From Candidatus Levyibacteriota bacterium (GTDB lineage Bacteria > Patescibacteriota > Microgenomatia > Levybacterales > UBA12049): a stretch of DNA of 57,382 nucleotides. The DNA lies in assembly GCA_027459745.1 (NCBI GenBank), contig DAIDHL010000007.1:1-57382 (forward strand). The letters run 5' to 3'. A program made the translations under genes and the position numbers. The notes beneath the pieces were generated by a model. The model did no database searches and was not told the DNA's origin. It worked only from the letters and a program-made list of their open reading frames with translations. This document shows positions 2,323 to 52,157 of this stretch, in pieces (position 1 is the first letter of the stretch; each line of letters begins with the position of its first letter).

Positions 2323-4497
2323 CTATGGCTTAGGAGTGACTGTGGATGTCGGTTTGACTGTACTTGTAGGTAACGGATTAGATGGTACAGGTGAGACAGA
2401 TGGACCAGGAATTTCAGCTTTAGGACTGATGCTTGGTAAAGTAGCTGGAGGGGTGCTAACGTTCAGCTGTTGACTGCCGTTGTTGGTGTTAGCTTGCTGG
2501 TTAGATCCGGCGTTATTAGAATTACCTTGAGTTTGTGAATTGATCTTATTCTGCAATGCCTTTATTTCAGCTGAAATCTTGTCACTATTTGCTTTATTAC
2601 CTGATACTAATTGTTGTACAACTTGGTAAGCTTGTAAGGCATTATTCAAGTCACCTTTGGCTTCATACGCATGACCTAAATTGTAGTATGCATTAGCATA
2701 ATCTGATTTAGCATTCCAGGCATAAGTAAACTGAGTGATAGCATTGTCCCATTGGCCTAGTTGATAGTAGATACCGCCCAAGTTAATATATTGTTGAGGA
2801 TTTTTAGGATCCAAGGCAATAGCTTGTTGACTGGTGGCTATGGCGTAAGCATCGGCATTTTGGCCAAAACCAATCAAACTGCGATAGATAGAGGATAGAT
2901 TATTCCAGTCCGAAGCTGTCTCAGGTGCCACACTGACGGCTGCTCGACCAGAAGTGATAGATTGTTGAATCAACTGTAATATAGTGTTCTGTACGGTTGC
3001 ATCTGGTTTCTTATTCTTTGGTTGACTAGCGGCCAATGAATTAGCCAAAGCCAAGTTGGTCTGTGAGAAGACGGTATAATACAAATCTCTATAAGGAAAT
3101 ATGCTGATAGCTTGACGTTGCAGGTCGTAGGTTGTTTGGGCCTTGTTTTGTCTAGCAGCCACCAGAGATTGCTCAAATACCATATCTGATTGCAAATATT
3201 CAAATGTAAAGTAACCAACTACACCTACCAAAGCTAAAAGTACAATAAATACTACACTGGGTAAGAAACGACTAGAATGTTGGCGAGAAGTTGCACCTTC
3301 TGGGGTGGCATTAACCAATCCCTGATTGAATGCTACAAAATGAAACTCAAAAGTTGGAAATTTGTTTGGATGATGTAAGGCTAATAAACTAGCAAAAATA
3401 GCTAGAATAACAAAGAATAAGGTCACAATTACAGGTGAAAAAGGTAACAGGAAGGCTGCTAACAAAGCAATAACTAAAGGTAAGAAGAATACTCTCTGTC
3501 TAATTACTCTGTATACTAAGAATAGGAATGAGAGTGCACCTAAGAAACCAGTCGTTGCAATCAACTCGAGGAAAAAGCTAGTCGAGCGAACGAAAGTAAC
3601 TGACCATAAGGTTTGATCCAAATTATAGGAAGCAGATTTAAAGCGAGTAAAATCTGTCAAATAAGTACCAAATCCACTACCCAGCAAGAAACTCTTTAAC
3701 AAAGTGGTATCTTGCGAGATTGAGGCAAAAGCGGTCTGAAAACCCGTAGCAAAAGGTAGAATCAACGGCTTTTGTGTTGTAAAAAGTTCAAATAAGGTTA
3801 TAAGCAATCCGATCAACAAAATAAAGGCTGCGAAAGCAAAAACTATAGCTCTACTCATTTGCCCAGACGATCCATCTTTACGCATTAGTAAGGTTTTTTT
3901 ATTGGTCAGAATACCATTATTTTGGAAAAGTGGGAAAGCTAAATAGGCAGCTAAAGGTAACACAATGGCCAAATAGATGGCTTGATCCAAGAACGATCCA
4001 TAAGTAGTAAAACCTTGAGCGTGAGTATCAGCAAAAGGCAACAGATAGATATTAAAGAATTGGAAGACGGAAAGAAGTGTGCTGACTAAAGCGCCAATGA
4101 CTAAGGCGCTGACTAAAAATACGATATCATTTTCTTTTTTTACGAGATTGGTAATACTAAAATATAATACGACTGCAAATAAGAACGGGAAGAAGGCTGT
4201 CAAACTATCGATGCGATTAACTGCAAAAACAGCTGATGCAAAAGCAATGATTGTAAATAACAAAATAGCAATGTCAAAAGGTGTACCTCGGAAAAACATC
4301 TTACGGTCGGCAACCATCGATATTCCATATACGATTACTGCTACTGCCACAGCGACTGCAATCACAATTTGCTTAGGCAAAGTAAAAGGATCAGTTGTTA
4401 GAGAGGTGTAGAGTATGGGTAAGACCAATAAAGCAATCCCCATTATTACAATAGCGATCTTTTGTAAACTTACTGCAAGAGAAGAATTGTTTTGCAT
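2323..4497 (-). CDS. Polytopic membrane protein (O-antigen ligase / Wzy_C-like by architecture) with C-terminal TPR repeats and a Pro/Thr/Ser-rich tail
   Basis: About 10-12 hydrophobic helices over aa 1-450. TPR-like repeats (YINLGGIYYQLGQWDNAITQF, AYYNLGHAYEAKGDLNNALQAYQ). Low-complexity tail (PSVSPVPSNPLPTSTVKPTSTVTPKP). ATG start at 4497. The Wzy_C assignment is pattern-based only. Confidence 0.6.
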   Translation of the reverse strand: MQNNSSLAVSLQKIAIVIMGIALLVLPILYTSLTTDPFTLPKQIVIAVAVAVAVIVYGISMVADRKMFFRGTPFDIAILLFTIIAFASAVFAVNRIDSLTAFFPFLFAVVLYFSITNLVKKENDIVFLVSALVIGALVSTLLSVFQFFNIYLLPFADTHAQGFTTYGSFLDQAIYLAIVLPLAAYLAFPLFQNNGILTNKKTLLMRKDGSSGQMSRAIVFAFAAFILLIGLLITLFELFTTQKPLILPFATGFQTAFASISQDTTLLKSFLLGSGFGTYLTDFTRFKSASYNLDQTLWSVTFVRSTSFFLELIATTGFLGALSFLFLVYRVIRQRVFFLPLVIALLAAFLLPFSPVIVTLFFVILAIFASLLALHHPNKFPTFEFHFVAFNQGLVNATPEGATSRQHSSRFLPSVVFIVLLALVGVVGYFTFEYLQSDMVFEQSLVAARQNKAQTTYDLQRQAISIFPYRDLYYTVFSQTNLALANSLAASQPKNKKPDATVQNTILQLIQQSITSGRAAVSVAPETASDWNNLSSIYRSLIGFGQNADAYAIATSQQAIALDPKNPQQYINLGGIYYQLGQWDNAITQFTYAWNAKSDYANAYYNLGHAYEAKGDLNNALQAYQVVQQLVSGNKANSDKISAEIKALQNKINSQTQGNSNNAGSNQQANTNNGSQQLNVSTPPATLPSISPKAEIPGPSVSPVPSNPLPTSTVKPTSTVTPKP

Positions 4498-4566: not shown

Positions 4567-7500
4567 TCAATTTACTATCCACCAATTAAGATGAATATCC
4601 TGGTCAATGGGTGATGATATTTGAATGGTGAAACTATTGGGCTGACCTGGGTTAATTTGAGGGTCTGTCTGGCGAGCTATGTAAGGGGTTTGACCATATG
4701 TATCAGAGCTGGGCGAGATATAAATTAATGATTTGGCATGTGCATAAGGGGTAATGATAGTTCTTTCTGTTTGTCCACGGTAGATAACGGCCGTTCCGGC
4801 AGAGGCAGTGGCTACAGTCTCTGTAATTGATGTATCTGCTTGTGCGCCATGTACAATAGTTAATGCATTAGAAACAATTTGGGCAAAGTTACCGCTGCCA
4901 GAAGCATTTAGATCCCCTTGCTGAGTAAGCGTCAGCACCGCGCTGCCGGAGGCGTTATTAATATTGAGACCTGGATCGTTAGAAGCTGATGGTGTGGCCA
5001 GTTGAATAGATAGATTGTGGTTGGCAAGAGGGGAAAGCGTATTCACAGCCAGAGTACCGCTGACGGTTACATTTTGATTAAAGACTGCATTACCAGCTAC
5101 ATTTAAGTTGCCGTTAGTATCGATAGTCAGTAATCCACCTAGAAAATTAACTCCACCTTGGCGTAAAGGTTGTAGTTGTAAATCAGATCCCACGACATTT
5201 ATCTCGGTATCCGCAATACTTAACCTTCCATCGATTGTAAGCTGGCCTGCAATGGCGGTATCAGCCAAACTAGTAGTTCCACTACTCATTAGACCAGTAG
5301 TTACATCTAGAGTGGATACTTGTAGATTCGCATCTGTCAGTTGAGCACTATATGAGGCAAGATTGATGTCGTTAGGTAATGGTGTGATGGCTTGACTAGC
5401 CAATTCCTGGGGTAAGATATTATTTTCAATCCCACTAGATGTAGCTGTCGTATTATCAACCAAAGTAGTAGTTGGTTGTGCAGAAGGAGTAGCGTTTTGG
5501 TAAACATTAGTTACATTCGTTATATATGTGGCACTCGGACTGGCGTTTAAGCCCTGTATTTCATCAGCCACGATCTTGTGGGCATAGAAAGTCCCACTGA
5601 CCGTGGCTGATGTCGTTTGCAGGGTATTACTCGTCAGTTGTCCGGATACGCTGGCATTCCCGTTGATATTGGCATTGCCGTTTATAATAATTGCACTTTG
5701 TGTACCAAGTGGACTGATTACATTGACTGCCAAGTTGCCGATTGAGGGTGATAGAGGATTAGCATTGCCTGGGTTTGATTGATGAATGAGATTATTTACA
5801 TAGTCTTGTAGTGAAACTCCGGCGATTAAAATATTGTTAGTGGAGAGTTGGGTGGTTTGTATGGCACTAGCTTGCAGAGTGCCCATAAAGTCCGCGCTAT
5901 TAGTGACAATTAAATCTTTGGTATTTACTAGTCCAACTTGTAAGTTGGCAATGCTAGCCCAGGCGTAGGCTGCAATTGAACTCAGAATATGGCCGTTATT
6001 GTCGCTTAGTTGATATGAGGGTTGGCTGCCATTTCCTGCCTGAGAGTTGCTCGGCATAGTAATATTAAGATTGCCAGCGTCTGTAATTTGCACAGCCGGA
6101 TCGTACCAGCTTGGCTGCACTACCACCAAAATTAAATCAATTAGGTAAGGGTCATTTGAAGTATAGCTAGCCAGTGCATGTCCAATAATGGGCCCAGCTG
6201 AAGTTGCTTTGACTCCTACACCTGGGATATTAGAAACCGAAATCGGATCTCCTGGTTGGATAGAGCCATTTTGTGTACTAACACGCACTTGTAATTGGCC
6301 TACAAAACCTACTGGAATAGAGGCAGCTCCATTATTTTGCCCAGCGAGTATAGTAGGAGAGGCTGATATCACTCCAGCAATAGAAGAATAAGATTGCGAA
6401 CTACATTGGGTTACCGTCTGTGAAGAGGTGAAGCAAGCCAGTGCGCCAGTTGGGATATTCTCATTTGGATCTTTAGGTAGATATTCAGCAAAGTCTCCAT
6501 TGCTATGTCCGCTGAAAGTCAATCCACCCATACCATTGCTCGTAATACTGCCTAGGGATTGGCCGTTAATATCGAGAAAATCTATGAATTTATTGTTTGG
6601 AGTAAGTGAGGAGTATGTAGCGCCTAATTTTAAGGCTAAGGCGGAAGCATTAGCGCTAGTATTGGTATTGGATATCATAGCTGAAACGGTAGCATCACGA
6701 TTATCAACAACATCTAACTTATATAGCGGATTTGAGGTGCCTATTCCTAATTGGTTATTTATTATTACATTTGAATTGAATTGGGGATTATTTAATTTGG
6801 CATTATTGATGAGAAGTGCACCCTGAGTAGCTTCTATCACATGATCGTTGTAACCGCTAAAGTTGATACCTGCGTTGTCGCCGGTAAATGTAAGACCTTT
6901 GGTACCATTGACTGTCAAATTACCGGAAAGAGCAGTAGTGGAATTATTAATTTTCAAAATACCGCTACTGCTACCAATATTTATGTCATAGGCTTGGTTA
7001 CCAATATCAAGTTCAAGTGGGCCATCATTTAGCAAGTTAAAGGTACTAGCGCTACTAGTCAAGCTGCCTCCATTGATGGCTAAATTGTCGGCAAATGTAC
7101 CTGTTCCTGTATAGCTGACAGTAAATTTAGAAACACCACTAGAGCTAGCATTTAGTAATGGTCCTAAGCCGTCTTGTTCGATCTGTAAGGCTGGCTGAGC
7201 GCTAGACGTTGCCCAAACAGCCAGCCTATCATCGACTTCCACCGCCCCCAAATTATCGGGAAAGTTACCAGTTAAAGCAGTATTAGTCAAAGGTTTTTGT
7301 AAATCAATCATACCTGACCCGTCGGGAGCTATTACTACATTGCCGTTGGACAAATCATTGGACTTAATTACTGTTAGATTGCCGCTAAGAGTAAAAGTGC
7401 CATTAGTAGCAGAGAAAGTAGGAGAAGAAGACCCGGCGATTTGTAAATTACCCGCAGAATCTAAAGACAAAACCACATTTCGTTGTAGACCTGAAGTTGT

Positions 7501-9018
7501 ATTAACTGGAGACATACCATTGAATAAAAGAGAGTCGCTGCTTAAGCTCGTGCTAGGTATGGCTTCACGCGGTGTCAATTCAGCATTAGTAGCAATAGTC
7601 GTACCTAAATATAATGAGGGATTATCTGAGAAGATAGTTTGCGGTAGAGATTCGCTTTGGCCTAAGGTGATTTGAAAGCCACCGTCGTTATTTGGTTTTA
7701 CCAGGTGTACAGTTTGCCATAAAAGGGCAGATCCTGAACCAGTTGGGTCATTGTATAAACTAAACCTAACTTCGGTTGGTTGAGTAATAGGCTTTTGGCT
7801 AGCATCTAAAAGCTTGCCTTGAAAATAAAGCAAACGTTGAGCAGATTGCAATCCAAGTACAGTCTGATTGCTAGCTAGAGGTTTAAAAACAAGAAAGACT
7901 ACTGCTTCAGCTATAACCAAAAAGAATAAAAGTGCCCCTATCATAGCAAATGTCAGTTTTGGAGATATAAATTTATGGATTGATTGATTTTGTTTGACAT
8001 TGTTAGATATTGTTATAGGAGACAGAAAGGATTCAGAATACTTTTGTCGGTGACGTGACCAATAGACCGTATCCATTCGATTTTGAATATAAGAGCCAAA
8101 TCGAGGACTTATTTGCTGTGTGGGTACAAATATCTTTTTCCCCGACAAATTCCATAAAAGATATTGCCCAGAAACAACAGCATAGGTTAAAGGAATAATC
8201 AATAAATAATCCACCAGTAAATTAAGACTTCTGGTTAGCTTTTGCCAAAGACGTAGAGGAGGGAAAGAAGAATATTTAAATTCCTTCTTAGAAAGGTAGT
8301 TATTTGTCGACACATTATTATATGTAGTATCCTGATCACTATGGGGGATGCAATTTAACTCTATAGGTCCATTGTTTATCTTTTGCTTTATGTCCAAATA
8401 ATTATAATAACTTTTTAAAGACGACAGTCGGCGATTAATCGTAGATGGTGATATTTTTTCTTCTAGTAGCCTTTTCTTGTATTCGTTAATAACTGTCGGA
8501 GTTAGATAAGAAAGAATCTCTTTTTTGAGATCTAGATTTTGGTAAGTGGTCCGAAACCAAAAGAGAAATAGCTGCGTGTCAGTTAAGTAGTTCTTAATAG
8601 TCGCAGGACTTGACTTATGTTGTCCTAGATAGTTCCTGAAAGCTTTGAGCAAATATGGGTCATCAATAGACCTTGGTGAAACTTGAGAAAAAGGATTGAC
8701 ATAGATATATCCATTTTGTTGCAAAAAGTTAAAGAATTTGCGTAGACTAGAAAAGTATCTTTCAATCGATTGATTTGAAGCTGCCTTAGCACTGATGCTT
8801 TGCATGTGATAAGCAGACTCCTGCAGTGACTGCTTGTAGGCACGAATAATATCAAAGTGTACATCTTGAGGTTTAAATTCTTGAGTATAGGTAGCTTCGA
8901 ACCAGGCAATAAATTTTCGCAGGTCTGAGAGATAGTTTTTCACAGAGATATCCTGCAGAGCGGGTTGGCGACTGATAAGGTATTCCTTATACAAATTTTC
9001 AAAATTTAAAATAGGCAT
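4567..9018 (-). CDS. Giant surface fibre protein (1483 aa): two N-terminal recombinase SAM-like/core-binding-type domains, a TM segment, an S/T/N/G-rich fibre, and a conserved C-terminal module ending in WWIVN
   Basis: aa 1-215 carries two copies of a core-binding-domain-like pattern (SVKNYLSDLRKFIAWFE...IERYFSSLRKFFNFLQQNGYIYVNPF; TIKNYLTDTQLFLFWFR...INRRLSSLKSYYNYL). Hydrophobic segment LTFAMIGALLFFLVIAEAVVFLVF (~aa 357-380). Fibre motifs include LGIGTSNPLYKLDV. The DFAEY...GDPISVSNIPGVGVKAT module is shared with two other proteins in this window. ATG start at 9018. Confidence 0.9.
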   Translation of the reverse strand: MPILNFENLYKEYLISRQPALQDISVKNYLSDLRKFIAWFEATYTQEFKPQDVHFDIIRAYKQSLQESAYHMQSISAKAASNQSIERYFSSLRKFFNFLQQNGYIYVNPFSQVSPRSIDDPYLLKAFRNYLGQHKSSPATIKNYLTDTQLFLFWFRTTYQNLDLKKEILSYLTPTVINEYKKRLLEEKISPSTINRRLSSLKSYYNYLDIKQKINNGPIELNCIPHSDQDTTYNNVSTNNYLSKKEFKYSSFPPLRLWQKLTRSLNLLVDYLLIIPLTYAVVSGQYLLWNLSGKKIFVPTQQISPRFGSYIQNRMDTVYWSRHRQKYSESFLSPITISNNVKQNQSIHKFISPKLTFAMIGALLFFLVIAEAVVFLVFKPLASNQTVLGLQSAQRLLYFQGKLLDASQKPITQPTEVRFSLYNDPTGSGSALLWQTVHLVKPNNDGGFQITLGQSESLPQTIFSDNPSLYLGTTIATNAELTPREAIPSTSLSSDSLLFNGMSPVNTTSGLQRNVVLSLDSAGNLQIAGSSSPTFSATNGTFTLSGNLTVIKSNDLSNGNVVIAPDGSGMIDLQKPLTNTALTGNFPDNLGAVEVDDRLAVWATSSAQPALQIEQDGLGPLLNASSSGVSKFTVSYTGTGTFADNLAINGGSLTSSASTFNLLNDGPLELDIGNQAYDINIGSSSGILKINNSTTALSGNLTVNGTKGLTFTGDNAGINFSGYNDHVIEATQGALLINNAKLNNPQFNSNVIINNQLGIGTSNPLYKLDVVDNRDATVSAMISNTNTSANASALALKLGATYSSLTPNNKFIDFLDINGQSLGSITSNGMGGLTFSGHSNGDFAEYLPKDPNENIPTGALACFTSSQTVTQCSSQSYSSIAGVISASPTILAGQNNGAASIPVGFVGQLQVRVSTQNGSIQPGDPISVSNIPGVGVKATSAGPIIGHALASYTSNDPYLIDLILVVVQPSWYDPAVQITDAGNLNITMPSNSQAGNGSQPSYQLSDNNGHILSSIAAYAWASIANLQVGLVNTKDLIVTNSADFMGTLQASAIQTTQLSTNNILIAGVSLQDYVNNLIHQSNPGNANPLSPSIGNLAVNVISPLGTQSAIIINGNANINGNASVSGQLTSNTLQTTSATVSGTFYAHKIVADEIQGLNASPSATYITNVTNVYQNATPSAQPTTTLVDNTTATSSGIENNILPQELASQAITPLPNDINLASYSAQLTDANLQVSTLDVTTGLMSSGTTSLADTAIAGQLTIDGRLSIADTEINVVGSDLQLQPLRQGGVNFLGGLLTIDTNGNLNVAGNAVFNQNVTVSGTLAVNTLSPLANHNLSIQLATPSASNDPGLNINNASGSAVLTLTQQGDLNASGSGNFAQIVSNALTIVHGAQADTSITETVATASAGTAVIYRGQTERTIITPYAHAKSLIYISPSSDTYGQTPYIARQTDPQINPGQPNSFTIQISSPIDQDIHLNWWIVN

Positions 9019-9657
9019 AGATTATACAGATTATACGGTTTATTTGATTTACTAAAAGAAAAAATAGCCCTGAATTTAGAGTAGATAAATAGCGATAAAC
9101 TGTCAATGAGTAAAAAGATTATTAGGCTCCAAAGAGATAGATTGATATATTTAAAAAATACGAAATATAACTTAAGAAATATTCTAAAAGTTAACAAATA
9201 GCTGTTAAAACTAAAATATATAAAAATTATATGAAATACCTCTTATTCAACACTAAACTGTGAAAAATCCATATCTATCAAAAGACATCAAAAGCGATCT
9301 AAGACTGTTTTTTGTCTTATTTGCGGAGTTTTTTAATTAATTACGTGTATAGAGGCACAATAGAAAATCTTGTTAGGTATTAAATATATAAAACTTAATT
9401 CATGAATCTAACTCTTAAATTAATTGCTGTATCTCGTAGTAGTTTTAGAATGACTAGTTTAATTTTCGCTATTATTTCGTATTTTAAGTAGTTTTAGCAC
9501 TCATTATATGAGTACGATAAGAAACATAGTCGTACATTTATCCAAATTCAGAGACCTAATCATCTAATATACCTGATGAGCTAGATAATTTTATTAGCGT
9601 TTCTTTACAAGTGTCTTATTTATTTAATTTTCTATATTAAAATATCCTATAGATAAG

Positions 9658-10629
9658 TTAATTTAGACTTCTTAATCGTGCTTTTATCTTATAACTTACA
9701 AAAATAGCAAACATAATCAATATTACTACGTAAAGCAGTGATTTTATAGGCAATAAAAATATGAAGCGGGTATAAGTTAGTGATTTTCCTGAATGAAGGT
9801 CTCTTACATTTATGATTAGATTCTCAGGCCCCAGATCGTTTTGTGTGTCTAGAAAGTATGAGAACGTTCGTGTACCCTTGGCTAAGATGAAAGCTTGAGG
9901 AAGTTGCGCGTTTTGTATTACATTACCCAAGATATTTTTTCTTATGATGTTTATGGATATATTTTGATAGGTATTGTTAATGTTTTTAAGAACAAATTTC
10001 CCCTGAAGATTATTATTATAATTAACTAATTTTTGCTCTATACTTTGGATACTGGGATCTTGTAAATACTTTAAGGATTTCATACTTGGTGAAACTAAGA
10101 ATAAGCTTCCAATACTCAGGTTTTGACTTAAATAAGCATCAATTGATGTTTTAGTGGGAGTTTCGGATAAAGGAGATGTATTATTGGTAGAGAAGAGAAG
10201 GCAAAAATAATAATCCTGTGCGTGAAATGATTTTGATTGAGGGGGAATATTTACTCTGAGAATTTGACTAGAATGAGGTGGTAAAGAGAAGAATGAAAAT
10301 GGCTGATTATTAATCGTCACGGTTATATCATTTAGGTAAGATGAAGTAGAGATTTCTTTTCTGGAGCCTAGTATTGGCCTAGCGCTAATACCAATCGACT
10401 GCTTAAAAGGTAATATTTCGAGGCTAAAATTAACTGAGTTATCACCATTATTGCTAATAGAGAGATTGGCTGATTGAGAAGCATTAGAAAGAGACAGTGT
10501 TTGAATTAGAGGTGAGACTGACAGGCTGGTGTTAGCCTTGGCAATGTTAGGTCGAGCAATCACATAGCAGATGAGGAGCACAGATAGCCAACCAATGGTA
10601 GATAAAGATACATTTTGATAGAGTTTCAT
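9658..10629 (-). CDS. Signal-peptide protein with two beta-sandwich-like halves and a C-terminal TM anchor (DUF916/DUF3324-like architecture); paralog of the 51155..52096 product
   Basis: N-terminal signal (IGWLSVLLICYVIARPNIAKA). SLSVSPLIQTLSLSN...ANLSISNNGDNSVNFSLEILPF pattern. C-terminal anchor LLYVVILIMFAIFVSYKIKARL. Start overlaps the upstream gene by 4 nt. Confidence 0.6.
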   Translation of the reverse strand: MKLYQNVSLSTIGWLSVLLICYVIARPNIAKANTSLSVSPLIQTLSLSNASQSANLSISNNGDNSVNFSLEILPFKQSIGISARPILGSRKEISTSSYLNDITVTINNQPFSFFSLPPHSSQILRVNIPPQSKSFHAQDYYFCLLFSTNNTSPLSETPTKTSIDAYLSQNLSIGSLFLVSPSMKSLKYLQDPSIQSIEQKLVNYNNNLQGKFVLKNINNTYQNISINIIRKNILGNVIQNAQLPQAFILAKGTRTFSYFLDTQNDLGPENLIINVRDLHSGKSLTYTRFIFLLPIKSLLYVVILIMFAIFVSYKIKARLRSLN

Positions 10630-11324
10630 AGATTTGGTAAAAACAAATAGTTAACATTGGTTATATAACTTCCCCCAGCCTGGGAAGCAGAAACATTTAC
10701 CTTGTAAAGAAATTTGTAGGTTTGAACAGAGTTTATTAATCCATCGTCCAACGTGACTGCTTGAGATAAGTTGGTGGATAGGGGACGAAACATGCTGGAA
10801 TCGCTAAATGAGCTATAACAGGCAGCCAATCCTCCGCTGCAGTTGTACCCTAAGCCATACGTTAAAGTATTACTCCATTGTTCGCTATTGGTAGGGCTGC
10901 AATTGCCGTTATCACAGCTAGTGGGTGGAATAAGCTGCTTATTATTTTGATTAGTTAAGTCTGTATCAGCATAAAGATAAAAGCTTTCAGATGAATCACC
11001 TACAACATTTACTGATAGGGTGTTTTTACGTAGTTGCGCTCGGGTTGGGGCAAGGGCTGAGAAATATAAAAAAGGTAAAGATAGATTTAAATTTATCATA
11101 CCTGTAGTATATTTTTCTAGGACGCTAGATTTATAAAATATAGGACCTTGCTCTTTGGTGGGCAAAGGAACTGTGGGTGTGGGAGATGTAGGATTATTTT
11201 TGGATTTTAGCTGGATATGACCTATATCAATTTGAGCTGATTGTGCACGAGCAATTGGTACAGAAATGAGCAAAAAAAGATAAGTAAAAACTAAAATATG
11301 AATTATGTTTAGTCTCGTCTCCAT
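10626..11324 (-). CDS. Secreted beta-rich protein with Cys-rich central part and a pilin/WxL-like C-terminal strand (GGSYITNVNYLFLPNL)
   Basis: Signal peptide (ILVFTYLFLLISVPIARAQ). Start set at ATG 11324, because TAGAAT (11336..11331) lies 6 nt upstream of it. The track start at 11330 is a GTG inside that spacer. Confidence 0.6.
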   Translation of the reverse strand: METRLNIIHILVFTYLFLLISVPIARAQSAQIDIGHIQLKSKNNPTSPTPTVPLPTKEQGPIFYKSSVLEKYTTGMINLNLSLPFLYFSALAPTRAQLRKNTLSVNVVGDSSESFYLYADTDLTNQNNKQLIPPTSCDNGNCSPTNSEQWSNTLTYGLGYNCSGGLAACYSSFSDSSMFRPLSTNLSQAVTLDDGLINSVQTYKFLYKVNVSASQAGGSYITNVNYLFLPNL

Positions 11325-11420
11325 AGGCACATTCTATGGTAAGCTAAAGCCAGTGAAAATACAAACTAGTATTTATTAAATTCTAGCTTCAAGAGCCTAG
11401 ACTATGTTATAATTTTGCTT

Positions 11421-14751: not shown

Positions 14752-14769
14752 AGTAGGGCTAAATATTTT

Positions 14770-37849: not shown

Positions 37850-38020
37850 AAATTTATCCTCTTCTTTTACTCTAGTGAAAAGAATTGTAAAAGTCAACCA
37901 AAGTTTAGCCTCAGATGTATGCTTAATAATCATTGACAGCGTCGTGAAAAATTGATTCAATTAAATAAGCAACAAATATTTAGTTTTAGACTCAAAATTG
38001 TATAAGTTTCTGACTAAGTT

Positions 38021-41000
38021 ATGAAAGACCTGTCCCTGTCCAAAGAAAGTGTACAAAAATTGACCGTTCAAGAAGCGGCAAATTATTTGCATGTCTCGAC
38101 TCAAACACTTCGTCGTTGGGATGAAAGTAGTAAATTAGTCTCCATCCGAACTCAAGGAAATCAGCGCCGTTATACTATCAAACAACTACGGGCCTTTAAA
38201 AAGTTATTACTGAAAAAGAATCCTCGCAGGGCCTTACAAAAATTAGCCCAAGAAGCTAACTTGCCTCAAACAGAAGAAATGCCTATTTCCACTGCAGAGC
38301 AAAATTTGGTAGTGCCGAAAATGGATCTTTCCTATACGGCCGAAGAAGATCTGCCACAAGAGCAATATTTAGGTCTATCAACTATAGCTGAACGTTATGC
38401 CTGGGAACAAGACAGACTGCGTGATCTGAATGAGCGAATTGCGGCTTATCAGCCTCCCGCTGATTTAATTTCCAGTGAAAATCTTTTTGCACAGGAATCA
38501 GAAGAAGCTAACAAAAAATATAAAAATCTATCTAAATATATCATTTTAACCTCAGCTGGTTTGGTTTTTACTTTATTTCTACTCAGTTCGCTTCTAATTT
38601 TTAAGCCAGAGTTATTAGGTGCTAGTTGGATGAATAATAATCTGTTTAAATCCACAGTCGCTCAGTTAGGTTTAGGTAAAAATAATTTCCAAGCTGTGCT
38701 CGGCGCTGCCAGTATCAATCCTGATTTACAATTCACAGTCTCGATCCCTTCTTTATTTAAACAAGAAACCATATTTTCTGCTTCAGTTAGTGCGCAACAA
38801 AATTTAACTGTAGGTCAGGCTTTAACTGCAAATGGTTTATCTAACTTGAATGGAGGGATAACCACCAATAATGCCAATATTGATGCAGGCGTGGGTAGCG
38901 TAACTGCAGCCAATTTGTTGTATGGCGTTAAGGCTGGTTCGGGTATTAGTATCAGCGCGGGGCAGACTCCCACGATTAGTTCGACGATCACGCAAACAAG
39001 TTTGCAAGGACAAACCGGAGCCTTAACTTTAAATGCTGGATCTGGTATTTCCATTGATGGGTTAAAGATCTCAGCCAATGATCTAGGATCTAGCCAAAAT
39101 ATTTTTAAGAATATAGCAGTCACCGGACAAAATACAATTACTGCTGGAAATAACAACGATACACTTACTTTTGCCCAGGGGGCAGGAATTACTCTGACCA
39201 CAGATTCAGCCAATAAAATTTTAACAATCGCTGCTTCAGCTGGTACAGGTGGAAATGGTCAGTGGCTGATCAATGGTACGAGCCTGTACTACACAGGTGG
39301 CAATATTGGTATAGGCACTGCAGCTCCTTTGGGTTTACTTGATGTGCAAGGGGCATCTTCGATTACTGGAATGGCAGCAGGAATTATCAATCAAACTGGG
39401 AGTGGAGATGTTTTTACAGCCAGTTCTTCGGGAGTGACTGATTTTGTTATAAAAAATAATGGTACGATACAGATGCCTGGTTTATCGACTGGCATTGCTC
39501 ATTTTGATGCCAATGGCATCTTGAGCAGTAGTCAGGTTGCTCTGGCCAGTGGAGACGTGATTGGTACATTGCCGATTAATCGCGGTGGTACCAATACTAC
39601 CTATCTGGGCCAGGCAGGCGCGATTGCTTACTCTAACGGAACTTACTATGATTTCACTACCCAGGGAACGGCAAATCAATGTCTAGTATCCAATGGCTCG
39701 GGAGCGCCAGGATGGGGAAATTGTATTTTAGGAGTAAATTATTGGCAACAAGGGAGTGGGGCAATCTCACCAGGGAATGAGACGAATGACGTCTTGATCG
39801 GGAACACCGCCACTAGCTCGGCGGCTTTTGCGTTTTCAGGTGTACTGGCAAACACGCGTACAGCGAGTATCAGTGGTAACTTATCTATAGCTGTTCCCAC
39901 TGGAGTAAGTGGTTCCAACAGTTTAAATATTTTCAATGGGGGGTCACTGTCTTTCAAAGTCTCACCTGGAGGCAACAGTGGTTTGAATTCCAGTTTCGTT
40001 TTGAACAGTAATGGTAGTGTCCAATTGCCAAATTTAACTACAGGTGTAGCTCATCTTAGCTCAAATGGCATATTAAGTAGCACTTTGATAGATTTAACGA
40101 GTGCTGCCGACCTAACAGGAATTTTGCCCATCAGCTTTGGTGGTACTAATACAGGTACTTTGGGCAGTGCAGGTACGGTTGCTTACTCTGATGGCACCAG
40201 CTATAACTTTACTGTTCAAGGAAATCCCGGCCAGGTTTTAATTTCAAACGGCTCTAGTGCGCCTTCTTGGGTAAGCTCGGGTTCGGTTGGTACTAATTAC
40301 TGGAATGAAGGAAATGGAGTGATTACTCCTGCTGATAATTCAGTAGATCTCTTGACAGGTGGGCAATCGACGTCTTCAGCAGCTTTTGCCTTTATCGGTA
40401 CGACGACCAATACTCGTTCTGCCTCTATTTCGGGCAATCTTTCTTTAAGTGTTCCAATTGGAAATAATTCCGGTGATAGCGTAAATATGTTAAACGGCGG
40501 ATCGCTGAGTTTCAATTTGTCTGCTGGCGGTGATAGCGGTTTAGCATCATTGTTCAAGTTAAATAGTAATGGAAGCGTACAATTTCCTAGTCTAAGTACC
40601 GGAATTGCTCATCTGAGTAATACAGGTGTGTTATCCAGTAGCTTGGTTAATCTTGCTGCGGATGTAACAGGGGTGTTGCCGTTAGCTAATGGTGGAACTA
40701 ATTCTAACTCGGTTGGTACAGCTGGTACGGTAGTTTATTCAAATGGAAGTTCATATCAATTTACGACTGCTGGTAATTTGGGGGATGTTTTAATTTCTAA
40801 CGGCACAGGTGCTCCCACATGGACTAGCTCAAGTTCAGTCGGGGTAAATTATTGGAACGAACTTGCTGGTACTGTTTCACCAAAATATTTAAGTAATGAT
40901 TTATTACTGGGTGGAACATCCACACAAAGCGCTAAGTTTGCATTTCTCAACAATTCAGGTATAGGTAATCCGACTGCTTCGATCTCAGGTAATTTGGCTT

Positions 41001-44000
41001 TGTCTGTGCCAACAGGGGCTAATCCTAATGCTGCCTTGAATGTCTTAAATGGAGGTAGCTTATCTTTGCAAACTAGTCCCGGTGGAGATAATGGTTTAAA
41101 TACTGCTTTATATTTAGCTGCGGGCGGTAGTGTAGGGATTGGTAACACCAATCCTAAAGCGAAACTAGATATTAGTGGGGCAGTTCGTTTAGGAGCAGCA
41201 GGTGGGAATAATGATATTCTAAATACGTCTGCCGCAGTTGGAGCTCCTTCCGGAGATTTGTATTGGGGTAACGAGGTTTTGTGTAATTCTACTGGTAATT
41301 GTGTAGGATCAGGGGGTACGGTTGGGGGGAATGGCACGGCTAATTACTTAGCTAAATTTACCGGTACCTTCAACTTAGGTAACGGTGATATTTATGACAA
41401 TGGAAATATTGGCATTGGTACTACCAATCCTTTGGCTCTCTTGCATATCGAAGGTGGTAATACCGGAGGGAATGCGGTAGCTATATTTAATCAAATCGGC
41501 AGTTCTAATAATGATATCTTTACGGCCAGTTCAGCTGGTATCACTAAATTTACGATTGCCAATGATGGTACGATTACAGATAAGAAATATTCAACTGGTC
41601 TGGCCCATATCAATTCTAATGGTAGCTTCAGTAGTAGTGCTGTTGACTTGACTAGTAGTGATGTCACAAATATATTGCCTATTGCCAAAGGAGGTACTGG
41701 CAATATGTCTTTAGGGTCATATGGTGGGGTAGCCTGGGCTGATACAGTAGACAATGAAATAGCATACACCGCTGCTGCGACATCCCAGGGGCAAGTCTTA
41801 GTTTGGGGCCCCTTTGGCTATCCAGTGTGGCAGAATTCTTCCAGCGTAGGAGCTAATGATTGGCAAATAATTGGAGGAGCGCTATCGCCTATAAATAATG
41901 CCAATGATTTCTTGCTTGGTTCTTCCTCTACCAGTAGTGCGGTATTTGCTGTAACAAAGATGAGTTACAATGATCCATCTTATATTTTCCACTCAAATTT
42001 ATCCTTGACTGTTCCTGGAGGGTCATCTGGAACTCAAACCTTACAAATACTTAATGGAAGTTCTTTAACCACACAGACAGCAAATGTGGGCAATACTAGT
42101 TTTATAAATGATGTTTTCGATATCAATAATAATGGTACGATCAGTATTGGCCAATCAGGGGGTAGCTCTACTTTAAATGTCGGTGGTACTGGTAATTTTA
42201 CAAGTAATCTATCAATTGGAGCCAGTGGAAAAACAGCTTTGTTGTTAACAAATAGCGGTAGTAATACTGGCTTAACGATTGCTGGTACTAATGGAAATGT
42301 CGATTTGTATAATTCAGGTTCACAAATTTTAGGGACAGACAATAATTTTAGTATAAATGGAGGAATAAACAATGGTAATGCAGCCTTAAGTGTAAACCAA
42401 AATGGAGCTTTGACAAACGATATCTTTACTGCCAGTAGTTCGGGTGTTACTAAATTTACGATTGCCAATGATGGCACAATTACTGCAGGTGGTACAGCTT
42501 ACGCTACTGGTTCAATTGGCATTGCTCATTTTTCTGCCTCAGGAGTATTAAGTAGTGGCCCAGTACATCTGGAGAGTAATGAGGTTACGGGAACTTTGGG
42601 TATCAATGATGGAGGAACCAATACTACCTCGATCGGCTTGGGTGGTACAGTTGTTTATTCTGATGGCACGCGTTATCAGTTTACTGGCGTAGGGACAACT
42701 GGGCAATGTTTAATTTCCAATGGCTCAGGTGCACCGGCATGGACCAATTGTGGAAGTGGAATTTGGAATCAAGCTAGTGGTGCCATCTATGCCAATAATT
42801 CGACTCAGGATTTATTGTTAGGGGGTAATAGTACATCGAGTGCAAAGTTCGCCTTTTTGAATGATAATTCAGGTATACCAGTCGCAAGTATTTCAGCTAA
42901 CAGTACAAATAACGCAACTTACTTATCAGGAGCAGGTGTGTTGGGGACTACTAATACTCAGACTTTAACGCTGGGGTCAAGTAGTACTGGAAATATAATT
43001 GTGAATCCTCGTAATAGTGCGGTAGGTGGTTACTTGGCGCCTGCAACTGATAATGTAACTGACCTAGGGGCGACTGGCTCTGCCAGATTTAGAAACTTAT
43101 TTTTAGGACCTGGATCTTTACATATACAATGTACAGTTACTGAAGGCTGTGGAAGCGTTAGTCAATTATATGATTATGCTTTGGGAGTTAACCCCGCCAA
43201 TAATAATTTTGCTTTTAGGGTCAATGGTAATGAAGAGGTGTCGATTAATAGCGCTGGAACATTAGGTTTAGCGGGTGCCAGCGCGACTGGTGGCAATTAT
43301 ATTACCAGTTCTAATTTTAACGTCACGACGGCCGGTGCAGTTAACGCAGCCAGCACTATCACCGGTACAAACATTAATGGCACAACTGGCATTAATTCCG
43401 GCATAGGTGCAGGGACACAAAGAATTGATAATAACGGTAATTTAGTGAACATTGGCAATATCACAGCTTCGGGTACGATTAATTTTACAGGTTTAGGAAA
43501 TGGAGTTTTACAAGCTTCTTCTGGCTTGTTGTCAGCTACCACTGTTGGTGTGTCTAGTGGTGGAACTGGGGTAAGTAGTGTTGGTGCTGCTGGTTCTCTT
43601 GCATATAGTAATGGGAGTAGTTATTCGTTTACTACCGCTGGTACCACTGGACAATGTTTGATATCCAATGGTTCAAGTGCACCGACTTGGGGAAGTTGTG
43701 GATCAGGTGGAGGGGGAGGTACTAGTTTGTTTGCCGATGGAAATGGTTCTATATATCCGCTGAATGCCACAGAAGATTTGTTCATTGGTGGAACAAGTAC
43801 ATCCTCAGCCAAGTTTGCTTTCTTAAATAATAATACTGGTACGCCAGTTGCCTCTATTTCTGCAAACTCAGGTAATAATGCTACGTTTATATCTGGTGAT
43901 GGTTATATCAGTGCTACCAATAAGCAAAATCTAAATTTTGGTAACAACCTAACATACAATTCGACGGGTAATCTATTATTTAACACCAATGGTGTTGGTT

Positions 44001-52096: not shown

Positions 52097-52157
52097 AGAT
52101 ATATCGATTATAAACAACGACAACGCTTTTGATAATAGCAGCTATCTGTTAAAGATT

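What the first reader, a model, noticed from the sequence alone, without database searches (positions are those of the whole stretch)
4567..9018. Giant fibre protein with two tandem recombinase core-binding (SAM-like) domains but no catalytic domain
aa ~1-215 shows two copies of the helical pattern of the N-terminal DNA-binding domain of XerC/D-type tyrosine recombinases. No catalytic R...HxxR...Y region follows. Instead there is a hydrophobic segment (~aa 357-380) and more than 1100 aa of extracellular-type fibre. A DNA-binding module tethered to the membrane by a cell-surface fibre suggests ToxR/CadC-like direct coupling of surface events to DNA. The second giant protein does the same with a different DNA-binding fold, so the arrangement is unlikely to be an assembly artefact.
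Basis: partly seen in the sequence, partly recalled or inferred. Interest (0 to 1): 0.8.

Follow-up and report, generated by a model that had tools for sequence, protein, structure and literature searches.

The report
Membrane-tethered recombinase DNA-binding domains on phage-like fibre
A candidate-phylum (Levybacteria) bacterium, like at least 224 related species, encodes a giant surface fibre built like a phage tail fibre; its inner end crosses the membrane and carries two recombinase-type DNA-binding domains with no enzyme part, an undescribed design that databases mislabel as "integrase".

Summary
ORF 4567-9018 (-) encodes 1483 aa:
- two tandem SAM-like core-binding (CB) domains (aa 8-111 and 123-208; Pfam E down to 1e-16) and no catalytic domain;
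- one TM helix (aa 357-380), N-in by charge bias;
- about 1100 extracellular residues.

It is not an assembly artefact. A profile search found 612 clusters (E<=1e-30) and all 150 listed scored E<=1e-124; 121 of the 122 long ones carry all the N-terminal modules. At least 224 reference genomes, mostly Levybacteria, encode a relative in one conserved chromosomal locus.

The fibre is phage-like. It has a Peptidase_G2 intramolecular-chaperone domain with invariant D842/E845, which other members replace with Peptidase_S74, and its folds match preneck-appendage and tailspike proteins.

Fibre-less relatives, some tail-anchored with a single CB domain, show that the core unit is a CB domain tethered to the inner membrane face. 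I therefore favour a DNA-membrane tether onto which an adhesion fibre was fused. ToxR-like signalling remains a possible but unsupported rival.

A second giant in the window repeats the design with an excisionase/MerR-type HTH. A gene-specific upstream array of GTATAAT direct repeats is a testable candidate binding site. DNA binding itself is untested. Novelty: new variant of a known kind. Interest: about 0.7.

The parts
4567..9018 (-). Whole gene, 1483 aa: CB-CB / linker / TM / Ig-like domain / stalk / IMC domain / conserved C-terminal module
8686..8997 (-). Core-binding (SAM-like) domain 1, aa 8-111
   Evidence: Pfam PF13102 E 6e-12; XerD model positions 10-94; four-helix bundle at pLDDT 80-92
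8395..8652 (-). Core-binding (SAM-like) domain 2, aa 123-208
   Evidence: Pfam PF02899 E 1.1e-16 and PF13495 E 1.5e-11; XerC model positions 2-92; invariant K142-N143-Y144, D147, R196, L198-S199-S200
8146..8274 (-). Conserved cytoplasmic linker, aa 249-291: 'YSSFPPLRLWQK' motif followed by a hydrophobic helix with a central Pro. Possibly a membrane-dipping hairpin; this reading is an inference.
   Evidence: Invariant P253/P254 and near-invariant R256, Q259, K260, D270, P276; KD 1.76 here and up to 2.6 in relatives; helix 253-291 at pLDDT ~70
7879..7950 (-). Transmembrane helix, aa 357-380 (signal-anchor, N-in/C-out)
   Evidence: KD 2.83; family-wide charge bias of +6 before and +2 after the TM; helix in the model
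7558..7839 (-). First extracellular domain, aa 394-487: Ig-like beta-sandwich that starts with the family motif R-x-L-x-F-Q-G-(R/K)-L-x-D
   Evidence: pLDDT ~85; Foldseek match to the SgrA adhesin Ig-like domain; motif conservation F 100%, G 95%, D 94%; present in 122 of 122 long members
7039..7518 (-). Conserved proximal stalk, aa 501-660 ('NVVL(A/S)LDS(A/S)GNL...')
   Evidence: Found in 116 of 122 long members; 84-98% identical to the closest orthologue
6094..6525 (-). Peptidase_G2-type intramolecular-chaperone/autoproteolytic domain, aa 832-975, with the D842-F-A-E845 motif (nt 6484-6495)
   Evidence: Pfam PF11962, 29-34 bits against a cut-off of 25; D842/A844/E845 invariant in 18 sequences; pLDDT 80-93; Foldseek matches preneck appendage proteins at E 1e-9, TMt 0.63 and tailspikes
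4570..5658 (-). Conserved C-terminal module, aa 1121-1483, ending '...NWWIVN'
   Evidence: Hits in 97-104 of 122 long members, lying exactly at their C-termini; giant 2 has the same ending
9019..9038 (-). Two direct repeats 'cnGTATAATc' at a 10-nt period, abutting the ATG. Candidate operator/iteron, or a tandem -10 element.
   Evidence: TATAAT-N3-4-TATAAT: 77 of 99 occurrences in 2.7 Mb lie upstream of the giant gene, in 68 of 77 loci
9078..9106 (-). Sigma-70-like promoter: TTGACA (9101-9106), N17, TACTCT (9078-9083)
   Evidence: TTGACA-N16-19-TAnnnT in 62 of 77 orthologous upstream regions, at a fixed distance from the repeats
9260..9266 (-). TTTTCAC box at -248
   Evidence: Sense-strand box within 300 nt upstream in 62 of 76 loci, against 0-4 for control genes
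2323..4497 (-). Conserved downstream partner: 724-aa protein with 11 predicted TM helices plus C-terminal TPR repeats
   Evidence: Syntenic in every locus that reaches far enough, and also next to the fibre-less Amesbacteria orthologue; one orthologue gives a weak Wzy_C hit, E 3e-4
10626..11330 (-). Conserved upstream partner orf234: secreted ~230-aa Cys-containing protein with a signal peptide
   Evidence: Present upstream on the same strand in 62 of the 80 related loci fetched from reference genomes; sequence; weak Ig-like pilin hits in 3 of 13 orthologues
38021..47683 (+). Paralogous second giant fibre (3220 aa): excisionase/MerR-type HTH aa 14-60 (nt 38060-38200), TM aa 172-195 (nt 38534-38605), G2-type IMC aa ~2808-2949, ending '...DWWIVN'

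Best explanation
The gene encodes a bitopic (N-in/C-out) envelope protein of a Levybacteria (CPR/Patescibacteria) chromosome.

Outside the cell it is a phage-tail-fibre-like fibre, presumably trimeric. It has a conserved membrane-proximal Ig-like domain and stalk, a centre that varies between family members, an autoproteolytic intramolecular-chaperone (IMC) domain and a conserved C-terminal module. Its most likely role is attachment to a host or partner cell.

Inside the cell its N-terminus is a pair of tyrosine-recombinase core-binding domains that lost the catalytic domain long ago. I propose that this pair is a membrane-tethered double-stranded-DNA-binding module. It would hold chromosomal DNA, most plausibly the repeat-bearing promoter region of its own gene, against the membrane at the base of the fibre. 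The tether is the older, self-sufficient unit, because fibre-less relatives exist. Levybacteria fused the fibre onto it, and a paralogue did the same with an excisionase-type HTH.

Shown: the domain architecture, predicted topology, family size, synteny, phage-like fibre folds, purifying selection on the CB pair, and a gene-specific upstream repeat array.

Inferred: DNA binding, the target site, trimerisation, adhesion, and whether the fibre stays covalently attached.
For: Architecture and topology.

Family size: 612 clusters at E<=1e-30. All 150 listed have E<=1e-124 and most match the profile from residue 1. SAM1 is in 121/122, SAM2 in 122/122 and TM+beta-sandwich in 122/122 long members. 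At least 224 reference genomes encode a relative, mostly Levybacteria.

Core chromosomal locus: ComEC<-ComEA<-LeuRS | orf234 -> giant -> 11-TM/TPR protein.

Fibre-less relatives at the same locus or elsewhere in CPR: P0020, P0180 and P0192, plus tail-anchored single-CB P0197 and P0199 with long Pro-rich tethers.

Two unrelated DNA-binding folds (integrase CB, excisionase/MerR HTH) occupy the same position on paralogous fibres. This points to nucleic-acid binding as the selected property.

The CB pair is basic (median net charge +8 over aa 1-220). It keeps invariant K-N-Y..D and R..SSL(R/K) motifs in both repeats. Its dN/dS is about 0.1.

The fibre is phage-like: Peptidase_G2 above threshold with invariant D842/E845, Peptidase_S74 in other members, and fold matches to preneck appendage proteins, tailspikes and pyocin fibres.

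Candidate target: GTATAAT direct repeats at a 10-nt period, almost exclusive to this gene's upstream region, with a similar array before the fibre-less orthologue.
Against: No experiment or computation here shows DNA binding. The conserved CB motifs largely overlap those needed for the fold.

Isolated CB domains of recombinases are generally weak, low-specificity binders (my own knowledge of lambda Int and Xer proteins).

The GTATAAT repeats equal the sigma-70 -10 consensus, so they may simply be tandem promoter or pausing elements. The TTTTCAC box also precedes other genes (orf234, ORF 37037-37960), so it probably belongs to another regulator.

The N-terminal module diverges faster than the stalk and the neighbouring genes (68-76% against 84-98% and ~92% identity).

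A conserved A/V-x-A motif ~10 residues after the TM could be a signal-peptidase site, which would separate fibre and tether.

The trimeric state and adhesion are inferred only from IMC domains and fold matches. Most of the fibre model has pLDDT below 50.
Confidence: 0.45

Rival explanations
1. Transmembrane signalling, either ToxR/CadC-like or by regulated proteolysis. Host contact or tension on the fibre would change the oligomeric state or trigger cleavage. The IMC autoprotease would act like a Notch/SEA/GAIN-type pre-cut, followed by intramembrane proteolysis. The CB pair would then gain, lose or change DNA binding and alter transcription, for instance of its own operon.
For: The bitopic N-in layout matches ToxR-like receptors. 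An autoproteolytic domain sits in the ectodomain. The gene has a conserved, gene-specific upstream region with repeats on both sides of the promoter and a recurrent ~127-nt spacing of TTTCAC-core boxes. The TM carries a recurrent G-F-G motif.
Against: Fibre-less and tail-anchored relatives work without any ectodomain. The window holds no site-2 protease or cognate partner. IMC domains in phages act in folding, not signalling. A trimeric fibre does not fit dimeric-operator logic. Nothing links fibre state to DNA binding.
Confidence: 0.2
2. The N-terminal module and the fibre are separated after export. The TM acts as an internal signal peptide, and signal peptidase I cuts at the conserved A/V-L-A|A-L-P site. 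The fibre would then be held on the wall by partner proteins (orf234, orf323). A CB-CB-TM stub, equivalent to the Amesbacteria mini protein, would stay behind, perhaps as a read-out of how many fibres were exported.
For: Motif statistics over 107 members, counted back from the conserved Arg that starts the Ig-like domain: position -10 is A/V, -8 is A in 51% and -7 is A/S in 72%, with Pro frequent a few residues before. The motif lies ~10 residues after the hydrophobic core and directly before the Ig-like domain. The stub would resemble the natural mini proteins. Conserved secreted or anchored neighbours are present.
Against: A ~350-aa cytoplasmic 'n-region' is very unusual for a bacterial signal peptide. 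The c-region would be long. The window protein itself has a weaker site (V-L-G). No predictor or proteomic data were available, and the motif may simply be structural.
Confidence: 0.15
3. The CB domains no longer bind DNA. They would be a protein-interaction or assembly platform, as the HTH of RodZ binds MreB. They could anchor the fibre base to a cytoplasmic structure, or recruit an export or glycosylation partner such as the conserved 11-TM/TPR protein.
For: RodZ is a precedent for a 'DNA-binding' fold used for a protein contact (my own knowledge). The juxtamembrane linker motifs are strongly conserved. The 11-TM/TPR partner is conserved even beside the fibre-less orthologue. MreB is encoded in the window. 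The CB pair evolves comparatively fast.
Against: Two unrelated DNA-binding folds were recruited to the same position on paralogous fibres. The module has a basic net charge. Polar and basic residues are retained at the starts of helices B and D, where Cre and Xer proteins touch DNA. That alignment is from memory and was not tested here.
Confidence: 0.15
4. Artefact: a chimeric assembly, or a decayed prophage integrase fused by frameshift to a prophage tail-fibre gene, with no function.
For: All modules (integrase CB, tail fibre, IMC) are phage-type, and PHROGs sees only 'integrase'.
Against: The same uninterrupted architecture is found in 121 of 122 long representatives and in 80 independent genome loci at one syntenic housekeeping locus. 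The gene is under purifying selection, dN/dS about 0.07 overall. No other prophage genes lie nearby.
Confidence: 0.02

Closest known systems
XerC/XerD-type tyrosine recombinases (N-terminal core-binding, SAM-like domain)
   Same: Both N-terminal domains match the Pfam Phage_int_SAM families and the first ~90 positions of the XerC/XerD models. They have the four-helix-bundle fold and the conserved 'T.KNY..D' and 'R.LSSLR' helices.
   Different: No catalytic domain (no R-K-H-R-H/W-Y pocket). The CB domain is duplicated in tandem. It is followed by a TM helix and ~1100 extracellular residues. The gene is a single-copy core chromosomal gene, not part of a mobile element. It cannot be a recombinase, although NCBI calls a 3901-aa member 'site-specific integrase'.
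ToxR / CadC / TcpP bitopic one-component regulators
   Same: A cytoplasmic N-terminal DNA-binding domain, a single TM and an extracytoplasmic C-terminal part. DNA would be bound at the membrane.
   Different: The DNA-binding fold is a tandem CB domain, or an excisionase-type HTH in the paralogue, rather than an OmpR-type winged helix. The ectodomain is a giant phage-like fibre with an autoprotease instead of a small sensor domain. Fibre-less tail-anchored relatives exist. No regulatory output has been shown.
Phage tail fibres/tailspikes with C-terminal intramolecular chaperone domains (phi29 gp12 preneck appendage, Peptidase_G2; endosialidase and T5 pb1 type, Peptidase_S74)
   Same: A G2-type IMC domain above Pfam threshold with an invariant Asp/Glu motif, and S74-type domains in other members. 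Across family members the layout is modular: a conserved N-terminal anchor, a variable centre and a conserved C-terminus. Fold matches to preneck appendage proteins, tailspikes and pyocin fibres.
   Different: The N-terminal 'anchor' is a TM helix plus a cytoplasmic DNA-binding module rather than a virion-attachment domain. The protein is encoded in a cellular housekeeping locus. About 500-640 residues follow the putative cleavage motif, far more than a typical IMC.
Membrane tethers built as 'globular binder - flexible linker - TM' (ZipA for FtsZ) and nucleoid-membrane links (Noc, RacA-DivIVA)
   Same: The mini relatives are a CB domain, a long Pro-rich linker and a C-terminal TM, which is the layout of a tether that holds a cytoplasmic macromolecule at the membrane.
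   Different: No sequence relationship. The ligand is unproven. No known nucleoid tether uses a recombinase CB domain or carries an extracellular fibre.
RodZ (cytoplasmic HTH - TM - periplasmic domain)
   Same: The same bitopic topology with an N-terminal 'DNA-binding' fold.
   Different: RodZ's HTH binds MreB rather than DNA, so it stands as a caution against assuming DNA binding here. There is no fibre, and the folds are unrelated.

Membership tests
Tyrosine recombinase / integrase (XerC/D, phage Int) | N-terminal core-binding (SAM-like) domain | tested here: met
   Pfam PF02899/PF13495/PF13102 above gathering scores, present twice; fold matches
Tyrosine recombinase / integrase (XerC/D, phage Int) | C-terminal catalytic domain (PF00589) with the R..HxxR..Y active site | tested here: not met
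   No PF00589 hit in this protein or in 17 full-length relatives. XerC/D/S/A models align only over their first ~80-125 positions, at 30-68 bits against cut-offs of 220-335. The sequence after aa 215 is linker, TM and fibre.
ToxR-like bitopic transcription regulators | OmpR-type winged-helix DNA-binding domain at the N-terminus | tested here: not met
   Only SAM-like domains were detected in aa 1-215
ToxR-like bitopic transcription regulators | Single TM with N-in/C-out topology | tested here: met
   One strong TM (KD 2.83). Positive-inside bias of +6 before and +2 after the TM across 140 members. This is a prediction only; no DeepTMHMM was available.
ToxR-like bitopic transcription regulators | Binds promoter DNA while membrane-anchored and changes transcription in response to an external signal | not testable with these tools
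   Only a candidate site was found, the GTATAAT repeats. Fibre-less relatives argue that an external signal is not essential.
Phage tail fibre/tailspike with intramolecular chaperone (Peptidase_G2 / S74) | IMC domain detectable by profile | tested here: met
   PF11962 at 29-34 bits against a cut-off of 25 in the window protein and in 14 of 18 aligned members. PF13884 at E 1e-11 to 4e-17 in P0027, P0048, P0051 and P0059.
Phage tail fibre/tailspike with intramolecular chaperone (Peptidase_G2 / S74) | Conserved catalytic residues (Asp/Glu of the G2 type) | tested here: met
   D842, A844 and E845 are invariant in 18 sequences. Assigning them as the phi29 gp12 catalytic pair rests on my own knowledge.
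Phage tail fibre/tailspike with intramolecular chaperone (Peptidase_G2 / S74) | Trimeric fibre whose C-terminal chaperone is cleaved off after folding | not testable with these tools
   The monomer model has low confidence outside aa 840-980 and 1410-1483. No multimer prediction or proteomics was available.
Phage tail fibre/tailspike with intramolecular chaperone (Peptidase_G2 / S74) | Part of a virion (encoded in a phage or prophage) | tested here: not met
   The gene sits between LeuRS/ComEA/ComEC and housekeeping genes, with conserved synteny across at least 57 loci and no phage genes nearby
MerR-family regulators (for the second giant, 38021-47683) | N-terminal MerR-type HTH | tested here: met
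   PF00376, PF12728 and PF13411 on aa 14-60. The BldC and excisionase NCBIfam models also match, below their cut-offs.
MerR-family regulators (for the second giant, 38021-47683) | Coiled-coil dimerisation helix plus C-terminal effector-binding domain in a ~130-270-aa soluble protein | tested here: not met
   The HTH is followed by an acidic linker, a TM at aa 172-195 and ~3000 aa of fibre

The most novel reading that the evidence does not exclude
A 'fibre-to-DNA' one-component system assembled wholly from phage parts: an integrase CB domain or excisionase HTH, a tail fibre and an intramolecular chaperone. A host-attachment fibre would be physically wired through the membrane to specific repeats in its own promoter. 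Contact or pulling force on the fibre would be read out directly on DNA. The pre-cut autoproteolytic domain would act like a Notch/GAIN-type force sensor, or export-coupled signal-peptidase cleavage would leave a DNA-binding stub that counts exported fibres. That would be a new class of mechano- or contact-sensing transcription control in ultra-small episymbiotic bacteria.
Probability: 0.15. Interest if true: 0.9.

Novelty: new variant of a known kind. Interest (0 to 1): 0.7.

Why it matters
CPR/Patescibacteria are thought to live attached to other cells. Almost nothing is known about how their surface structures are anchored or regulated.

This finding defines a large, conserved and so far undescribed family. 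It comprises at least 612 clusters at 50% identity and occurs in at least 224 species, with members up to 6048 aa. Annotation pipelines call its members "site-specific integrase" or "MerR regulator".

The finding matters for four reasons:
1. It removes a systematic misannotation that inflates counts of mobile elements and recombinases in CPR genomes.
2. It shows that recombinase core-binding domains exist as stand-alone, membrane-tethered modules.
3. It shows phage tail-fibre and intramolecular-chaperone machinery domesticated as a cellular surface organelle.
4. It gives a concrete, cheap experiment, binding of the CB pair to the GTATAAT repeats, that would test whether a surface fibre is directly linked to DNA.

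Tried and rejected
1. PDB 9i5v chain 14 ("RaiA", 401 aa) was the best solved-sequence match to SAM1 (E 1.4e-8). It looked like another CB fusion without a catalytic domain. It is a P. gingivalis ribosome entry in which only 34 residues were modelled, and the SAM part is not discussed. Dead end.

2. The TTAGCCTCA box seen upstream of both giants has 174 occurrences in the loci, so it is not specific.

3. Leaderless mRNA from the TATAAT elements abutting the ATG: this arrangement holds only in the window, its closest relative and a few others (6 of 78 loci). In most loci the repeats lie 50-80 nt upstream.

4. No Rfam family matches the 640-nt upstream region. The simple promoter scan was uninformative there.

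5. A dif site or terminus link: cumulative GC skew rises monotonically across the window, so no terminus lies here. The repeats are direct, not inverted like dif arms.

6. Sequence search of aa 801-1483 against PDB found nothing. Only fold comparison worked.

7. PHROGs recognised only the integrase-like N-terminus.

8. Pfam on the conserved partners gave only hints: Wzy_C in 1 of 13 orthologues, an Ig-like pilin domain in 3 of 13.

9. Literature searches for this architecture found nothing relevant.

10. dN/dS is only indicative because dS is saturated.

Full report
**1.
The minus-strand ORF 4567-9018 starts with ATG and encodes 1483 aa. Pfam places Phage_int_SAM_5 on aa 8-111 and Phage_int_SAM_1/_4 on aa 123-208. 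On aa 1-215 alone the E-values are 1.1e-16, 6e-12 and 1.5e-11, all above gathering scores. The NCBIfam XerC, XerD, XerS and XerA models align only through their first ~80-125 positions and score far below their full-length cut-offs. The catalytic half is therefore absent. No PF00589 hit exists in this protein or in 17 full-length relatives.

The two domains are 30% identical to each other. An AlphaFold2 model of aa 1-520 gives two four-helix bundles (pLDDT 80-92), a long helix at 253-291, a TM helix at 353-378 and a beta-sandwich at 397-487. Foldseek pairs the bundles with recombinase N-terminal domains: 3nrw at TMt 0.66, lambda Int, Brujita Int, XerA and Tn1549 Int. It pairs the sandwich with Ig-like adhesin domains.

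**2. Topology.**
There is one strong hydrophobic segment at aa 357-380 (KD 2.83) and no N-terminal signal peptide. The ~100 residues before the TM are net positive, and everything after it is net acidic and rich in S/T/N/G. Across 140 family members the 30 residues before the TM carry a median net charge of +6, against +2 after. Residues 1-220 have a median of +8, and the ectodomain has about -2.5 per 100 aa. This supports an N-in/C-out signal-anchor topology.

A second, weaker hydrophobic helix lies at aa 265-283. It follows the invariant 'FPPLRLxQK' motif and has a central Pro. The loop after it is very basic, so I read it as a cytoplasmic, possibly membrane-dipping hairpin rather than a second TM. 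That reading is an inference.

**3. It is a large family, not an artefact.**
The indexed search found 23 relatives, mostly truncated by short contigs, all from Patescibacteria. An exhaustive profile search over 1.84 billion representatives found 612 proteins at E<=1e-30. All 150 listed scored E<=1e-124, most aligned from residue 1 through ~600 profile positions, and the complete ones are 1300-6048 aa long.

Segment-wise phmmer on the 122 members of at least 1200 aa gave these counts:

| Module | Members |
|---|---|
| SAM1 | 121 |
| SAM2 | 122 |
| TM + beta-sandwich | 122 |
| Proximal stalk | 116 |
| G2-type IMC | 63 |
| C-terminal module, lying exactly at the C-terminus | 104 |

The central region is variable. 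A scan of one genome per species found 224 genomes encoding a relative. The best 80 are overwhelmingly labelled Levybacteria/Levyibacteriota. Many binned records carry an obviously wrong 'uncultured Gammaproteobacteria' label.

In these loci the gene sits in a conserved housekeeping context: ComEC<-ComEA<-LeuRS | orf234 -> (variable) -> giant -> 11-TM/TPR protein, followed by a convergent M23/LysM peptidase. Among the 80 related genome loci, orf234 is present in 62 and LeuRS in 54; adding the three loci of the fibre-less orthologue brings LeuRS to 57. The TPR protein is present in every locus that extends far enough. The rest of the window is ordinary chromosome: aminoacyl-tRNA synthetases, MreB, sortase, glycosyltransferases and the ATP synthase operon. 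It holds no Xer recombinase, site-2 protease or prophage genes.

NCBI names a 3901-aa member 'site-specific integrase', which is a misnomer.

**4. The fibre is built like a phage tail fibre.**
Pfam Peptidase_G2 ('IMC autoproteolytic cleavage domain') matches aa 832-894 above threshold. In an 18-sequence alignment D842, A844 and E845 ('D-F-A-E') are invariant. To my knowledge this corresponds to the Asp/Glu pair of the phi29 gp12 auto-chaperone. Other members carry Peptidase_S74 ('chaperone of endosialidase') at the equivalent position instead, with E from 1e-11 to 4e-17.

A model of aa 801-1483 is confident only for aa ~840-980 and ~1410-1483. Those parts match phage tailspikes, capsule depolymerases and R-pyocin fibres in the PDB, with probability ~1 and rmsd 2.3-2.9 A over ~82 residues. 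In BFVD they match preneck appendage proteins (E 1e-9 to 4e-9, TMt 0.63, rmsd 2.0 A over 131 columns), tail fibres, Mtd-N proteins and an 'IMC auto-processing' protein, with 34 hits at E<=1e-3.

Across the family the layout is a conserved N-terminal anchor, a variable centre and a conserved C-terminal chaperone-type module. That is the modular logic of receptor-binding proteins. Trimerisation, autocleavage at D842 and adhesion are inferred, not shown.

**5. What the cytoplasmic module is for.**
Three observations guide the choice.

(a) The core unit is 'CB domain tethered to the membrane', not 'sensor plus DNA-binding domain'. In Amesbacteria the syntenic position (LeuRS/ComEA/ComEC on one side, the 11-TM/TPR protein on the other) holds a 303-aa protein: SAM-SAM, a Pro-rich linker, a TM and a 25-aa tail. 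Its relatives include P0180 and P0192 (tandem CB with short tails). They also include P0197 and P0199, which have a single CB domain, a long Pro-rich linker and a TM at the extreme C-terminus, making them tail-anchored. Such proteins have no ectodomain to sense anything. Their 'binder - flexible linker - TM' layout is that of a tether.

(b) The window's second giant (38021-47683, 3220 aa) has the same design but starts with an excisionase/MerR/BldC-type HTH (aa 14-60) before its TM (aa 172-195). It shares the G2-type IMC domain (41% identity over 123 aa) and the C-terminal '...WWIVN' ending with giant 1. Its N-terminal module also recurs in Patescibacteria. Two unrelated DNA-binding folds recruited to the same position argue that nucleic-acid binding is the selected property, not a fold-specific protein contact.

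(c) The CB pair is basic. It keeps invariant K-N-Y..D and R..SSL(R/K) motifs in both repeats. Against the closest orthologue its dN/dS is about 0.1 (dS saturated). It nevertheless diverges faster (68-76% identity) than the stalk (84-98%) or the neighbouring genes (~92%).

I therefore favour a membrane-tethered dsDNA-binding module, a DNA-membrane tether, onto which Levybacteria fused an adhesion fibre (confidence 0.45). The rivals are:
- ToxR-like or proteolysis-coupled signalling (0.2);
- separation of fibre and tether by signal peptidase (0.15);
- a non-DNA protein platform of the RodZ kind (0.15).

**6. A candidate DNA target found in passing.**
The upstream region of the gene has a conserved architecture across genomes:
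- one or two TTTTCAC(A/G) boxes at about -200 to -260;
- a sigma-70-like promoter, 'ctctaGGtyTTGACA'-N17/18-'TAttCT';
- two or three direct repeats 'cnGTATAATc' at a 10-nt period, starting 53-78 nt downstream of the TTGACA;
- often another TTTTCACA box ~25 nt before the ATG.

TATAAT-N3-4-TATAAT occurs 99 times in 2.7 Mb of both strands. Of these, 77 lie within 420 nt upstream of the giant ORF, in 68 of 77 loci. Most of the rest precede giants whose start I had not mapped. The fibre-less Amesbacteria gene has a similar TATAAT/TATAAC array.

TTTTCAC is present on the sense strand within 300 nt upstream in 62 of 76 loci, against 0-4 for LeuRS, ComEA, ComEC, HK and the TPR gene. Occurrences of its relaxed core TTTCAC show a recurrent spacing of 127-129 nt. 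In the window the box also precedes orf234 and ORF 37037-37960, so it probably belongs to a shared regulator.

In the window the repeats are at 9019-9038, abutting the ATG. The promoter hexamers are at 9101-9106 and 9078-9083, and a TTTTCAC box is at 9260-9266. No Rfam family matches. The repeats are a concrete candidate operator for a tandem DNA-binding module. They are also identical to the -10 consensus, so tandem promoter or pausing elements are an equally simple reading.

**7. An unresolved processing question.**
About 10 residues after the hydrophobic core, and directly before the invariant 'PPR-I-L-S-F-Q-G-R-L-T-D' start of the Ig-like domain, the family conserves '(A/V)-L-A-A-(L/A)-P'. 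This fits the -3/-1 rule of signal peptidase I. If it is used, the fibre would be released from the CB-CB-TM stub, which would then resemble the natural mini proteins. This cannot be decided here.

**8. Comparison with known systems and novelty.**
The protein is not a tyrosine recombinase, because the catalytic domain was tested for and is absent. It resembles ToxR-like receptors only in topology. Its ectodomain meets the profile and motif criteria of IMC-bearing phage fibres, but it is a cellular, membrane-anchored protein. I found no description of this architecture in the held literature, including the preprint on giant genes.

I rate it a new variant of a known kind: a bitopic membrane-tethered DNA-binding protein combined with a domesticated phage fibre. 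The more radical 'fibre-to-DNA sensing' reading has a probability of about 0.15. Interest is about 0.7. The architecture is surprising, widespread and misannotated, and the key claim can be tested with one binding experiment. The function remains inferred.

Noticed in passing
window 9019-9270 (minus strand); orthologous upstream regions in L005-L084: The giant gene has a conserved upstream architecture: TTTTCAC box(es), a 'ctctaGGtyTTGACA-N17/18-TAttCT' promoter, and 2-3 direct 'cnGTATAATc' repeats at a 10-nt period. The tandem TATAAT repeat is almost exclusive to this gene: 77 of 99 occurrences in 2.7 Mb, in 68 of 77 loci.
   Followed up: partly
window 11353-11359 and 37944-37950 (minus strand); window 9260-9266: A TTTTCAC box also lies 17-35 nt upstream of the starts of orf234 and of ORF 37037-37960. 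Its reverse complement flanks the TTGACA upstream of giant 2. This may mark a shared regulon of envelope genes or a leader element. Within 60 nt upstream of ORFs it is enriched before giants (15 of 51) over other ORFs (9 of 661).
   Followed up: partly
window 38021-47683 (+): A second giant protein (3220 aa) has an N-terminal excisionase/MerR/BldC-type HTH (aa 14-60), a TM (aa 172-195), a G2-type IMC domain near aa 2808-2949 and the same '...WWIVN' ending. It also has an LVIVD repeat hit and a weak collagen-binding adhesin hit. Its HTH-TM module recurs in Patescibacteria, where it is annotated 'MerR family regulator, partial'.
   Followed up: partly
window 2323-4497 (-): The conserved downstream partner is a 724-aa protein with 11 predicted TM helices, C-terminal TPR repeats and an S/T/P-rich tail. 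It is kept even beside the fibre-less Amesbacteria orthologue. One of 13 orthologues gives a weak Wzy_C (O-antigen ligase) hit, so it may be a glycan ligase or oligosaccharyltransferase-like enzyme.
   Followed up: partly
window 9658-10629 (-) and 10626-11330 (-): Two overlapping upstream genes encode envelope proteins. orf234 has a signal peptide, conserved Cys residues and weak Ig-like pilin hits, and is syntenic in 62 loci. orf323 has a signal peptide plus a C-terminal TM anchor and is poorly conserved. The layout recalls the small secreted and anchored partners in Gram-positive surface-protein loci.
   Followed up: partly
window 4567-9018 compared with L005:10001-14449: Against the closest orthologue, the cytoplasmic CB pair and linker are the most diverged parts (42-76% identity), while the proximal stalk is 84-98% identical and the neighbouring genes ~92%. 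A putative DNA-binding module evolving faster than an exposed fibre segment is unexpected.
   Followed up: partly
family proteins P0027, P0037, P0048, P0051, P0056, P0059: Within one protein family, two unrelated phage intramolecular-chaperone types (Peptidase_G2 and Peptidase_S74) occupy the same position before the conserved C-terminal module. This implies module swapping like that seen in phage receptor-binding proteins.
   Followed up: partly
loci L007, L009, L013, L015, L016 and many others: Many reference-genome records carrying this Levybacteria-type locus are titled 'uncultured Gammaproteobacteria bacterium' (binned TPA assemblies). The label looks like a placeholder or an error, given the gene content and synteny.
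   Followed up: no
PDB 9i5v chain 14 (external): The P. gingivalis 'RaiA' protein (401 aa) in a ribosome structure has an N-terminal SAM-like domain that is the closest solved sequence to SAM1 (profile E 1.4e-8). Only 34 residues were modelled, and the paper does not discuss that domain.
   Followed up: partly
window 47724-48101 (+): A gene for a 23S rRNA intervening-sequence protein (PF05635, E 5e-19) lies directly after giant 2.
   Followed up: no
window 48124-50514, 50596-51183, 51155-52123, 52158-53288, 36258-36968, 37037-37960: A run of ORFs of 195-796 aa has no Pfam match at E<=1e-4, typical CPR 'dark matter' flanking giant 2.
   Followed up: no
window 14122-16038 (+): ComEA (SLBB + HhH) and ComEC competence genes are transcribed divergently from the giant-gene cluster, with LeuRS between them. 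This arrangement is conserved across Levybacteria and Amesbacteria. It may be mere synteny or may link the locus to DNA uptake.
   Followed up: no
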